Part shown: positions 17,901-24,939 of the stretch, in pieces
Layout: the number at the start of each line of letters is the position of its first letter
Numbering within the stretch: position 1 is the stretch's first letter
From: Chrysomallon squamiferum
Lineage: Eukaryota > Animalia > Mollusca
NCBI GenBank assembly: GCA_012295275.1
Contig: CM022670.1
Span: 40,362,001-40,426,000 of the forward strand
Reading direction: 5' to 3'
Length of the DNA stretch: 64,000 nt
Position numbers and translations under genes: made by a program
The notes under the pieces: model-generated
Told to the model about the DNA's origin: nothing
Seen by the model: the letters and a program-made list of their open reading frames with translations, nothing else
Databases searched by the model: none

Positions 17901-20900
17901 TGAACAAGTGGGCAGATGGTTGAGGCTGTTGTTCTTTTTATTAAACTTTTTAATAAATAGAATGTGTAAAAAGCAGGGAGATGTTTGTGTGTGTCTGTCT
18001 GTCTGTCTGTGTTTGGTGTGTGTGTGTGTGGCTGTATTTGTGAGTGTGTGTGTGTATGTCTAAGTGTGCATGCATGCATGCATGCACATCAGCTGAGCAT
18101 TGTTTTTCATGCATGAATTATAAAACTGATAACATTATGAAAGTAAATTTGATATATATAAAATATTACTTTTTTTTATCTGAATTCTTTTTAGTATCTT
18201 TTTAAATACTAACATATAACAATAATTCATGTTAAACGGAAACATCGTCCAGCATTTATCTCCTTTATAAAGTAAAATATACATTGATACACTACTCTGA
18301 TCATCTACAGCAGTGGTATCCAACATGAACCACATCATCATCTGGAGGTGGTATTAACTTGCAGTGTAACTGAAACCTCTTTATTTTTATTTGTAAATGA
18401 ATAAGGAATATGTGGGATGAGACAAAGGGTGTTGTGATATAAAACCTGGATTCACTGGTCTACGTATTTATAGAGTTCCAGCAGTCACTTAACAATTATT
18501 TCTTAACATTCTTTTTAATACATGCATCAACTAGATGTATGTTTGGTGTTTCTGTTTTATTAAATTAATGAAATGCATGAGTTTGAATTCATTAACACAA
18601 TTATTTATTATCACAAGTTCATTTATAAAATAAACTGATTGTTCTATATTTAGTGCATATTATGATTTGAAACATACATGAGTAGAGTATGCTCATGAAT
18701 GCTATTAAACTCAAAACATCTAATATTTTGATAATATATATTTTTTTAAATTGCTTATATAGTTGGTTTTGTAATGTAGTTGCAGTATAATAATATGTGA
18801 GAAAATATTTTTAATATATTCTGATCGTTACCTGTCTAAATCTTTGTTGGATTTACAACCATATATAACAATATTATTATCCTCACTTAAGAGCAAAGGG
18901 ATATTTTCTGGTTATATATTTATTTAACATCTTTAACTTTTTGATATTGCTTGTGGTATAAAACGTCACTAATTATATACTACTGTGAGTCTTGACACCT
19001 TATACAGGTATAACACCTTACTGCTGTATTGGAAGCACAGTGCTTAACACAGTGAAGGTTTTGCTCATTTTAGGTGTTGTCCCATGTGGCTTGCTTTGCT
19101 TTGCTTTGCTTTGCTTTGCTAAGTGTAACCTTTATAAAAAATATTTATTTTAATATTTTTAATATAAACCGGCTTTATAAAAATTAAAAATTAAAATAAA
19201 AAATTTGTCATATATCTTTATTGGTATATATATCTATATGTTTTAATTGCAAGATTAATTATATTTAAAAGTAAATTAGTAAGAAGCACAATATAATGTA
19301 TCTTTGTTATTCAGTCACGTTTAATTGTAAGGAAGAATCAGTTAATAAATATTAAATTAAAAATTAGCATCAGTGGTAAAGAAATAAAAAATAAATTCCA
19401 TATGTAATTTATCTTTCATGTTTACAGATAAACTGTGAAAAAAAAAATTACTGAAAATTTGGAACATTACTGGATCAGGTTCAATAATTTACAAAGAGTA
19501 ATTGTAAACTTTTCAGTCACTATAACGAATAAACAAGTGATCTAACTGTTTCTCATCACTGTGTTTTTAATGTAAATGTGTGCTAGGTGACTTACGAAGA
19601 GTTTGAACTGTACTACTCTGGGGTTAGTGCATCCATCGATAATGATGCATACTTTGACTTGATGATGAGGACAGCGTGGAAGTTAGCTTAAAGAGGTGAT
19701 GGAGTCTTCAGATGTTTTCATTCTTCTCTGTAATATCCTTATGTTTATCTCAGTTCTGTGGATGTGCAGTTAAATCTAATCTTTCGTTAATCTGATATGT
19801 TTACACAGACATGTTATGTAAAAATCGATCTAATGTGTTTTGTTGGAAAAAGGAGCTTTTATTTATTTATTACTTTATTATTATTATTATTTTTTTTTTT
19901 TTTTATCCTAGACAGTGTTCAGGGAATTAAAACTTGATGAAAGATATCCATGTTTTTATTAACATATGGATTGAATTCAGAATTTTAGTGTTTGCAATTT
20001 AAAACAAAACAAACCACAGAACATTCAGCAAAGCAAAGCAAAAAGAAAAATAAAATAAAATAAAATAAAATAAAATAAAATAATAAAAATAATTACAAAT
20101 AAAAATGAGAAATAAACCTCTTTTTTTTGTATTAGTGTTTATATTTTATTCAGTGCTTTAGTAATAGAGATTAAATTTCTTTAGAACAACGCAGTCTGCA
20201 CTAGATGCCACTTTAGAAATGAAATTTAGTTTGCTTACTTAGTTTTTAATATTTTCAGTCAAACTGTGAACTTCAGTTTCAAATATTTTCCCTTTGCTTT
20301 TTCCTTTGTTTATCACAGTCAGTGGTTAGTCTTTTCTTCAGGGTGTTTCATCTACTAACATAATTCCAAATATTTGCATGTATTTTGGATTAACTTAAAT
20401 AAAGCTGTATGTATGTGTTTATATTTTTTGTTTCTTAAAATAAGAAAAACAAAACAAAAAACAAATAATATACCCTGGAATAAAAATAGAAGATGTAAAT
20501 ATTCATATAATAAAAAAAGGAAAAGAAAAACCACTGTCAGTATTTAAGGGCTACTAGAATTCTGTTTTTGTTTTATGGTGAGAAAATGATGAATATTTGC
20601 CATGTAGTTTTCTTTTAAATAAAATAATTGCACATTATTATTATTATTATTATTATTATTATTATTATTATTATTATTATTATTATTGTTTGATTTAGAA
20701 TAGATATGTTTTTTTCTTCATGCATTTTTGTGATTGCTTGTCTTGCAATTTGACCTTTGACCCTTTCAGATTACAAATGAAGAGTTTCTAAATTACTACT
20801 GTGGTGTTAGTGCATCAATAGACAATGATGCATACTTTGATCTCATGATGCGGAACGCCTACAAACTTGCAAATTAGTTTCATCATAGTGCTCACATGCC

Positions 20901-23900: not shown

Positions 23901-24939
23901 AACATTTGCTTTTAGCATTAGATTAAATTAAGGGACAAAAACAGTTTTTAAACTAATCATGCAAATTTAAAAATTATTATTATACCTTAAAAAATAATAA
24001 TAATAAAAAATTAAAAATACCAATAAAATCAAATTAATTTTAAATAGATTTTAATTTAGTTTTTTGTTACCTTAATATTCTTATAAAATTTTAATGCTTC
24101 AAAATTGTTATGCATATTTCATAGTGAAAAATATTTAGGCTTCTTCCTGCTATTGCATTTTCTATTTTAGCATGCATGATAATTGTAAAATATATATACA
24201 GTAGAATACAGTTGTCATGCTTTAATTATGCAAAGCAAAAGCAACTGTTAAATGATTGCATGTTTACTTGTGATCATTCAAACAATGAATCTTTTAGCAG
24301 TTACTAAATAAAGTATGAATGGTAAGTATTGATCTTTTCAAAAGTTAATATTAGACATTTTGTACCATAACTAGATTAAATAATTTTAAAACATTCTATA
24401 ATGTGATGACAGAAAAAGACTGATACATATTCAGGGCTGGCCCAATGGTTTTTAGTGCCCTGTGATATTTTAATATTGACACTGAAGCTGATTAAGTGTG
24501 TGAATTTCCTGCCAATCCTTTTCCAATGTTATCCCATAATAATTAAGAATTAATAATCAGATTCTTGACAGTTTGAATCAACTCAAAGACTTTTCATCTA
24601 TCTTTATTTTTCTTTTAACATTTTTCACTTGTACATTTTTAATGTCTCAAACACACGATGTAGCACTGATTAGAAAGTGATGTCCTGGGATGCATGACTG
24701 AGTTGCTGCTACCTTCATGTACAAACATTAGTTTGGTTTAGTTAGTGATGCTACAAATATAATAAAAACTGCCAGTTTCTTGTCATTTATGATGTAAAAA
24801 TAAACTTTGTTTCTAACACTTTGTTTTCCAGATAACTAATGAGGAATTTGTCAATTATTACTGTGGTGTAAGTGCCTCCATAGACAATGATGCCTACTTT
24901 GATCTCATGATGCGAAATGCTTATCAGCTGAAAGACTAA
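14918..24939 (+). CDS. CAPSL: Calcyphosin-like EF-hand protein: three common exons plus three alternative terminal exons
   Basis: Common exons 14918-15054 ([46 protein letters not shown]), 16644-16824 (EF loops [12 protein letters not shown] and [12 protein letters not shown]) and 17068-17274 ([12 protein letters not shown]...FDSNEKDGK, phase 0). Closely matches recalled human CAPSL. Terminal exons are listed separately. Confidence 0.93.
17456..17556. repeat. Interrupted (CA)n microsatellite in the CAPSL intron before the variable exons
   Basis: Directly visible. Confidence 0.95.
19091..19120 (+). repeat. (TTGCT)6 pentamer array; candidate RNA docking site or MBNL YGCY cluster
   Basis: Six perfect TTGCT units in the intron upstream of CAPSL exon A, complementary to 20021-20042 and 24230-24244. 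The repeat is certain; the function is inference. Confidence 0.85.
19587..19691 (+). CDS. CAPSL: CAPSL alternative terminal exon A
   Basis: TAG acceptor, phase 0, [40 protein letters not shown] cluster at about 20049-20116. Confidence 0.9.
20635..20687. repeat. (ATT)n microsatellite upstream of CAPSL exon B
   Basis: Directly visible; similar ATT/AAT tracts occur in many introns of the window. Confidence 0.9.
20770..20877 (+). CDS. CAPSL: CAPSL alternative terminal exon B
   Basis: CCCTTTCAG acceptor, phase 0, [35 protein letters not shown]. Confidence 0.9.
24832..24939 (+). CDS. CAPSL: CAPSL alternative terminal exon C
   Basis: CTAAC branch-point-like motif and TTTTCCAG acceptor, phase 0, [35 protein letters not shown]. 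Confidence 0.9.

What the first reader, a model, noticed from the sequence alone, without database searches (positions are those of the whole stretch)
19091..24244. Candidate docking-site/selector competing RNA pairings controlling CAPSL last-exon choice
Seen: an element upstream of exon A (UUUGCUUUGCUUUGCUAAGUGU, ending at 19126) is complementary to ACAUUCAGCAAAGCAAAGCAAA at 20021-20042, between A and B. 21 of 22 positions pair, with one G-U and one mismatch, and pairing extends beyond the simple repeat into unique flank. The same element is complementary to GCAAAGCAAAAGCAA at 24230-24244, between B and C (14 bp with one bulge). Selector 1 sits directly before the AATAAA cluster of exon A. 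Established: one docking site with several selectors is how mutually exclusive exons are chosen in insect Dscam1 and some 3'-variable genes. Inference: no pairing gives A; docking with selector 1 loops out A and gives B; docking with selector 2 loops out A and B and gives C. I know of no such description for calcyphosins. Caveat: the pairing is partly low-complexity and selector 2 is short.
Basis: partly seen in the sequence, partly recalled or inferred. Interest (0 to 1): 0.75.

Follow-up and report, generated by a model that had tools for sequence, protein, structure and literature searches.

The report
Snail calcyphosin-like tail-exon loop-out helix
A snail calcium-binding gene carries three duplicated tail exons; the first likely splices onward instead of ending the message, and a predicted RNA helix around it may help skip it, while the proposed second competing pairing is weak.

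Summary
The sequences are as described. The gene is CAPSL of a snail close to Gigantopelta aegis, with three duplicated C-terminal exons (A, B, C); 3-4 such tails also occur in other gastropods and bivalves and 2 in fishes. Docking-selector 1 is a 21/22 helix (-27.6 kcal/mol), unusual but built on a pentamer repeat. Selector 2 is weak (-18.7; chance about 0.04-0.14) and would have to displace the stronger helix formed earlier. A donor lies 4 nt after its stop, an RNA contig's length and depth fit an end exactly there, and 4 intronless contigs from other animals join the first tail exon straight to the second. The AATAAA cluster is an (AAAAT)n microsatellite. So the helix is best read as a loop-out around a cassette exon, not a Dscam-type switch. 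A second, unreported helix (19737-19760 with 23117-23140, -28.9) brackets exon B. Conservation in a close relative, the decisive test, was not obtained. Function of the helix: about 45%. Full three-way competition as proposed: about 10%.

The parts
14918..15054 (+). CAPSL coding exon 1 (ATG to donor)
   Evidence: translation matches the N-terminus of Gigantopelta P0001; GT..AG joint in RNA contigs of X8 and X9
16644..16824 (+). CAPSL coding exon 2
   Evidence: pieces of RNA contigs 16 and 21; splice dinucleotides read
17068..17274 (+). CAPSL common exon 3 (69 aa, ends inside the last EF-hand, phase-0 donor)
   Evidence: 94% to Gigantopelta aegis calcyphosin-like protein; Pfam EF-hand pair spans residues 117-186 of P0001
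19091..19126 (+). 'docking' element D: (TTGCT)6 plus 6 nt of unique flank, 460 nt upstream of exon A
19587..19695 (+). exon A: 34 codons, stop at 19689-19691, likely ending at a donor after 19695 (internal, stop-containing exon); acceptor poor in pyrimidines (0.57)
   Evidence: contig-length and depth bookkeeping; inferred, junction not seen
19737..19760 (+). element X, 41 nt after the putative donor of A; 5' arm of a second predicted helix
20021..20042 (+). 'selector 1' S1, 3' arm of the helix that brackets exon A
20047..20104 (+). (AAAAT)n microsatellite containing AATAAA hexamers; no sign that it is used as the poly(A) signal of A
   Evidence: RNA depth 0.48 and 1.87 in the bin 19754-20114
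20770..20877 (+). exon B coding part (35 codons plus stop); RNA contigs continue into its 3' UTR to about 21500
23117..23140 (+). element Y, 3' arm pairing with X (23 of 24 positions, 6 G-U); X-Y brackets exon B
24230..24244 (+). 'selector 2' S2, weak complement of D, 588 nt upstream of exon C; doubtful
24832..24939 (+). exon C coding part (35 codons plus stop); spliced to exon 3 in an RNA contig
   Evidence: X8 contig 16 runs exon 1-2-3-C

Best explanation
The CAPSL gene has three duplicated C-terminal exons; exon A is likely an internal stop-containing cassette that splices on to B or C, and the predicted 22-bp helix between 19105-19126 and 20021-20042 likely promotes its skipping by looping it out. 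The first tail exon included sets the protein's C-terminus (second half of the last EF-hand and the terminal helix); a paralog joined behind A would serve as 3' UTR, and the stop lies 4 nt from the junction, close enough to escape nonsense-mediated decay (rule recalled). B versus C is then an ordinary alternative-last-exon choice; selector 2 is probably not a true competing selector. Shown: exons, complementarity, exon 3-C splicing, tandem inclusion in other animals. Inferred: the A donor in this species, formation of the helix in vivo, its effect on splicing.
For: Donor-like AG|GT 4 nt after the stop of A, score 6.0 (top 3% of 3337 GT sites), none comparable after B (-1.4) or C (3.1) (weight matrix approximate, recalled). 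X9 contig 21 has 111 unlisted letters after exon 3, which from 19585 end exactly at 19695; its depth predicts 12.4 of the 16.4 seen in the A bin, and the same bookkeeping gives 19.87/19.9 and 20.43/20.4 for exons 1 and 2; the next bin has 1.87. In 3 of 3 other genomic clusters (L027, L028, L049) only the first copy has a donor of score 6 or more within 56 nt of the stop; 31 of 73 single-copy loci have one 4-9 nt after the stop (largely one related clade, 5 members placed); 4 intronless contigs (L014, L040, L055, L068) join copy 1 to copy 2 directly. Helix: predicted at 0.89-1.0 for 15 core bases in a 1121-nt fold, 13.5 kcal/mol gain; net -19.8 after opening costs; chance about 0.02 for this geometry. 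Similar unique-sequence helices bracket the exon in 2 of 14 other donor-type species groups (L033 group -41.1, arms identical in L045 at 93% flank identity, one G-U-compatible change in L035; L031 -28.7), against 0 of 14 loci without the donor and 7 of 210 mismatched pairs. Looped-out exons are included less often in human (PMC8052449, passages).
Against: The A-to-B or A-to-C junction was not seen in this species; it rests on arithmetic from cut tables, and contig depth is one figure per contig. No conservation or covariation of D or S1 was shown: organism B contigs matched only the exons in the rows listed, but repeats were skipped and tables cut. 16 of the 22 pairs come from a pentamer repeat, and the helix is as strong on the antisense strand (-27.9), as any DNA inverted repeat would be. 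12 of 14 other donor-type groups have no strong helix; 2 of 14 against 7 of 210 is p about 0.08; the permutation p of 0.03 includes this window, which was chosen for its helix. L027, L028 and L049 show no helix across their first exon above shuffles (54, 24 and 46 of 100). In X9 the main contig appears to include A, so the helix does not silence it. The weak acceptor of A could explain skipping alone.
Confidence: 0.45

Rival explanations
1. Same exon layout, but the pairings are incidental: two short arrays of one pentamer repeat happen to face each other, and exon choice is set by the weak acceptor and modest donor of A, by splicing proteins and by poly(A) competition between B and C.
For: Repeat-based arms; equal antisense energy; 0.18 chance of some helix this strong in any 7.6 kb; 4 of 17 other loci have helices at or below -27.5 across the exon, two of them simple repeats; A acceptor pyrimidine content 0.57 against 0.70 and 0.78; the tail cluster exists in L027, L028, L049 without such a helix; Pan et al. 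found tandem 3' clusters without pairing (PMC6191721).
Against: The pentamer class occurs only here in 64 kb and in the right orientation and position; pairing extends 5 of 6 nt into unique flank; a second strong helix in the same cluster makes two in 7.6 kb, chance about 0.02.
Confidence: 0.4
2. One reading: A, B and C are three last exons; D unpaired gives A, D-S1 gives B, D-S2 gives C, by competition for one docking site as in Dscam1 exon 6 or PGRP-LC.
For: S1 and S2 lie 728 and 588 nt upstream of B and C, the two most similar copies (80% nucleotide identity), as expected if a selector was duplicated with its exon (PMC6071210, abstract); the shared 10-mer occurs nowhere else in the window.
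Against: A probably is not terminal. D-S2 is net -9.4 against -19.8 for D-S1, S2 is predicted to pair locally with 23885-23895 at about 0.66, and it emerges after the B poly(A) region; no other similarity remains between the introns upstream of B and C.
Confidence: 0.1
3. The two arms are the terminal inverted repeats of a small transposon or an old local inverted duplication, with no role in RNA.
For: A 44-nt inverted repeat of this kind lies at 5362-5405/7388-7431; the D-S1 pair is strand-symmetric.
Against: The enclosed exon A has an ortholog in Gigantopelta and best-matching tails in Pomacea and Haliotis, so it was not brought in by an element; no further copy of the arms in the window; no target-site duplication seen by eye.
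Confidence: 0.05

Closest known systems
Competing RNA pairings at 3' variable regions of Drosophila PGRP-LC, CG42235 and Pip (PMC6191721; parts 1-4 of 8 of the text read)
   Same: Tandem duplicated 3' cassettes; one upstream element complementary to elements upstream of later cassettes.
   Different: There the elements are conserved over 12 species, of similar strength and validated by compensatory mutation; here the arms are a pentamer repeat, S2 is much weaker and 5 kb away, conservation is untested, and the first exon appears to be internal.
Dscam1 exon 6 docking site and selectors (as described in the introduction of PMC6191721)
   Same: Upstream docking element, partners upstream of target exons.
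   Different: Internal exons that need strict exclusion, with a repressor (hrp36); here joint inclusion of two copies is tolerated and seen in other animals, and the first exon has no selector.
Exon loop-out by pairs of complementary intronic regions, e.g. GPR126 exon 24, FGFR1OP2 alternative terminal exon (PMC8052449, passages); BRD2/BRD3 poison exons (search listing only)
   Same: One helix with an arm in each flanking intron, predicted to lower inclusion.
   Different: Those pairs were defined by conservation; none reported for CAPSL or a mollusc in my searches.
C-terminal tandem-exon substitutions such as human MYL6 (listed as C-terminal in the supplement of PMC8373072; that its upstream exon carries the stop and leaves the paralog as UTR is recalled)
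   Same: EF-hand protein whose homologous C-termini are swapped by including or skipping an exon.
   Different: CAPSL is absent from that list of 236 human events; here there are three copies, of 34-35 residues that complete an EF-hand.

Membership tests
Docking-site/selector competing RNA pairing | Cluster of duplicated alternative exons | tested here: met
   A, B, C at 66-80% nucleotide identity; three matching isoforms in Gigantopelta
Docking-site/selector competing RNA pairing | One docking element complementary to two or more selectors over the same bases | tested here: inconclusive
   S1 strong; S2 overlaps the same repeat but is within reach of chance, 0.04-0.14
Docking-site/selector competing RNA pairing | Only one exon of the cluster per transcript | tested here: inconclusive
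   Exon 3-C contig has one; A probably splices on to B or C here (inferred), and 4 contigs of other animals hold two copies, which argues against
Docking-site/selector competing RNA pairing | Elements conserved in relatives, with compensatory changes | tested here: inconclusive
   Organism B contigs showed exon matches only, but repeats were skipped and tables cut; no close-relative intron sequence was obtained; the motif is not at matching places in 80 distant loci
Docking-site/selector competing RNA pairing | Disruptive mutation changes exon choice and compensatory mutation rescues it | not testable with these tools
   needs a minigene
Loop-out of a cassette exon | Exon has both an acceptor and a donor | tested here: inconclusive
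   Acceptor present; donor after 19695 supported by score, contig arithmetic and homologous loci, junction itself not seen
Loop-out of a cassette exon | Stable helix with one arm in each flanking intron | tested here: met
   predicted, -27.6 kcal/mol, probability 0.89-1.0 in the core
Loop-out of a cassette exon | Exon is skipped in some transcripts | tested here: met
   X8 contig 16 joins exon 3 to C
CAPSL / calcyphosin-like | About 208-aa EF-hand protein orthologous to CAPSL | tested here: met
   exon 3 is 94% identical to Gigantopelta calcyphosin-like protein; exon lengths give 209, 210 and 210 aa, as in its three isoforms

The most novel reading that the evidence does not exclude
A two-helix code: D-S1 loops out exon A and the crossing, G-U-rich, sense-strand-specific X-Y helix loops out exon B, so that neither gives A(+B as UTR), D-S1 alone gives B, X-Y alone gives A(+C as UTR) and both give C. 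One arm pair is built from a pentamer microsatellite, and unrelated helices around the same exon in a worm-like clade (L033 group, L031) would show repeated, independent recruitment of RNA loop-outs at an ancient CAPSL tail switch.
Probability: 0.12. Interest if true: 0.7.

Novelty: new member of a known kind. Interest (0 to 1): 0.4.

Why it matters
Long-range pairing that steers duplicated exons is documented in arthropods and vertebrates; my searches found no case in a mollusc or in CAPSL. A validated helix here would extend it to molluscs and show a microsatellite co-opted as a splicing element. Independently of the helix, the tail switch of CAPSL (2-4 homologous C-termini in gastropods, bivalves and fishes; in several other animals the first copy is spliced onto the second) was not found in print by those searches and alters the last EF-hand of a poorly understood calcium-binding protein.

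Tried and rejected
No whole genome was held, so repeat-family and genome-wide null tests were not possible. Loose duplex scans with 40-nt tiles were uninformative, because scattered pairings reached -29.9; compact-helix scans replaced them. The 10-nt-seed scan missed the X-Y helix and one more, so its rank 2 of 149 overstates D-S1; searches give rank 4. The first exon-joining script had exons 1 and 2 off by one base; boundaries were corrected. Absence of organism B contigs over S1 (depth 0 in 19754-20114) is not counted as evidence, since repeat letters were skipped. A closer look at the docking/selector 1 stretch in organism B and at the exon A junction in RNA was not obtained, so both stay open. 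No Rfam family in 14500-26000. No competing pairing above shuffles in L027, L028, L049 except one 12-bp helix in L027 (3 of 100, one of 7 tests). Helices in L009 and L030 were tetranucleotide repeats and dropped out under the stricter filter. Of 80 loci, 54 single-copy ones entered the flank clustering and 14 + 14 representatives the matched/mismatched test; intronless contigs, very short flanks and near-duplicates were left out; 261 relatives were found but only 80 returned. Earlier-finding look-ups returned nothing. The protein tree does not resolve the taxa of L027, L055 or L068. The supplement held for PMC9741552 was one short file and may lack its gene tables.
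Full report
Setting. The window is AT-rich animal DNA. The exon at 17068-17274 is 94% identical to the calcyphosin-like protein of Gigantopelta aegis, next best 84%, so the host is likely a close relative of that snail; the species was not determined and no genome is held. 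Coding exons lie at 14918-15054, 16644-16824 and 17068-17274, followed by three paralogous exons A (19587), B (20770) and C (24832), 66-80% identical in DNA. Gigantopelta has three isoforms whose tails match B, C and A one to one (32, 32 and 29 identical residues). Distinct homologous tails after the same junction occur in Pomacea (3), Littorina (3), Haliotis (up to 4), Dreissena, Mercenaria, Mya (3 each), Ruditapes (4) and in Danio, Erpetoichthys, Polypterus, Astyanax and Platichthys (2 each). The junction falls inside the last EF-hand pair.

Observation. The docking element D, selector 1 (S1) and selector 2 (S2) are at the stated places. D-S1 pairs at 21 of 22 positions, -27.6 kcal/mol; D-S2 gives -18.7. 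The shared 10-mer occurs only at these three places, and the pentamer class has only two arrays in the window. D-S1 beats 100 of 100 dinucleotide shuffles, ranks 4 of 12 strong non-low-complexity helices within 7.6 kb on the sense strand and 4 of 93 with no distance limit. In a fold of 19000-20120 the core pairs with probability 0.89-1.0; the minimum-energy structure also contains it, its centroid does not, probably because the repeat pairs in several registers. S2 is matched or beaten by 5 unrelated sites in 128 kb, is predicted to pair locally and is net -9.4 against -19.8 kcal/mol.

What exon A is. RNA contigs from two samples of one study were laid on the gene. X8 contig 16 runs exon 1-2-3-C. 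Contigs of B begin at its acceptor in both runs and cover its UTR. X9 contig 21 is 681 nt; exons 1-3 fill it to 570, and the last 111 letters were not listed. Read from 19585 they end at 19695, the base before a GT 4 nt after the stop of A; read on B or C they end 1 nt after the stop at no landmark, and B is held by a separate contig. The contig's depth reproduces the exon 1 and 2 bins exactly and explains 12.4 of 16.4 in the A bin, leaving room for at most about 36 nt more at that depth; the next two bins have 1.87 and 0.15. I use depth only to place one contig, not to rank isoforms. The inference is that A ends at a donor and splices on. Homologs agree: in the three other genomic clusters (L027, L028, L049) only the first copy has a good donor within 56 nt of its stop; 31 of 73 single-copy loci have one 4-9 nt after the stop, mostly one clade, a few with a decayed copy downstream (L042 best, E 0.002); and four intronless contigs join copy 1 to copy 2, two of them forming the stop across the junction. 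L014, one of the four, groups with the donor-bearing clade (99/96). The AATAAA cluster next to S1 is an (AAAAT)n array, a class with four arrays in the window. One X8 contig covers intron plus A unspliced, so some DNA or precursor is present in these libraries.

A second helix. 19737-19760 (X) pairs with 23117-23140 (Y) at 23 of 24 positions, -28.9 kcal/mol, six of them G-U; it is weak on the other strand (-13.6), unlike D-S1 (-27.9). It brackets B and crosses D-S1. Opening costs are high (net -11.2). Two helices of this strength in 7.6 kb have a chance of about 0.02.

Comparative test of loop-out. No intron sequence of a close relative was obtained: organism B contigs matched exons 1-3, A, B and C at about 83-91% and no intron piece appears in the listed rows, but repeats were skipped and tables cut, so this is no evidence either way. 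Among distant loci, 2 of 14 donor-type species groups have a strong unique-sequence helix across the exon with similar spacing (L033 group, arms 338 nt up and 415 nt down, -41.1; L031, -28.7), 12 of 14 have none; 0 of 14 loci without the donor and 7 of 210 mismatched pairs do (p about 0.08). The L033 arms are identical in L045 at 93% flank identity and carry one G-U-compatible change in L035, which is weak support; whether that exon is skipped in those animals is unknown. L027, L028 and L049 have no helix across their first exon above shuffles.

Mechanism. Most likely the first tail exon included sets the C-terminus. A is a cassette with a pyrimidine-poor acceptor and a modest donor; D-S1, if it forms, would place both sites in a 0.9-kb loop and favour exon 3-B or 3-C (0.45). 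Nearly as likely the helix is incidental and proteins and splice-site strength decide (0.40). The full three-way competition is unlikely (0.10): exclusion is not needed, and S2 would have to displace a stronger helix made 4 kb earlier. The two-helix code is the boldest reading still open (0.12, nested in the first).

Literature. Competing pairings at 3' variable regions are established for Drosophila PGRP-LC, CG42235 and Pip, and the same paper reports tandem 3' clusters without pairing (PMC6191721; parts 1-4 of 8 read). Duplication of one arm with its exon is a proposed origin (PMC6071210, abstract). Looped-out human exons are included less often (PMC8052449, passages). C-terminal substitutions can arise from alternative poly(A) or exon skipping; CAPSL is not among 236 human events, MYL6 is (PMC8373072, passages and supplement search; PMC9741552, passages and one supplement file). 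Searches for calcyphosin or CAPSL with exon-choice terms, and for molluscan cases, found none; the library lacks most subscription journals. The 50-nt decay rule, the MYL6 exon layout and the donor matrix are recalled.

Verdict. A real and fairly unusual helix around a real alternative exon, probably a loop-out rather than a docking/selector switch; new member of a known kind; interest 0.40.

Noticed in passing
window 19737-19760 with 23117-23140: Second predicted long-range helix (-28.9 kcal/mol, 6 G-U, sense-strand-specific) bracketing exon B; not in the finding.
   Followed up: partly
L033:3566-3587 region with L033:4419-4440 region; also L034, L035, L036, L045: 22-bp unique-sequence inverted pair (-41 kcal/mol) bracketing the CAPSL stop-containing exon in a worm-like clade; coordinates approximate.
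   Followed up: partly
L014, L040, L055, L068: Intronless CAPSL contigs in which the first tail exon is joined directly to a second, intact paralogous exon that then lies in the 3' UTR.
   Followed up: yes
L027:7180-8524 and L028:309-2064: Two species of unplaced taxon with three orthologous CAPSL tail exons; L027 has an extra intron inside the common exon 3.
   Followed up: partly
window 5362-5405 and 7388-7431: 44-nt inverted repeat 2 kb apart, possibly transposon-derived.
   Followed up: no
window 17456-17556 and 17982-18068: CA and TG microsatellites facing each other inside the intron upstream of exon A; could form a longer duplex than the docking helix.
   Followed up: no
window about 9540-11766 (+): Exons of an LSM4-like gene (recognised from the translation; name recalled).
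   Followed up: no
window about 3900-7030 (-) and 54200-60700 (-): Exon fragments resembling a prolyl-hydroxylase of the OGFOD1 kind and an auxilin/GAK-like J-domain gene (names recalled, not tested).
   Followed up: no
window 13341-13671: Degenerate AT-rich minisatellite (period 18-35) between the LSM4-like gene and CAPSL.
   Followed up: no
window 21608-21662: Near-perfect 24-bp local hairpin in or just past the 3' UTR of exon B.
   Followed up: no
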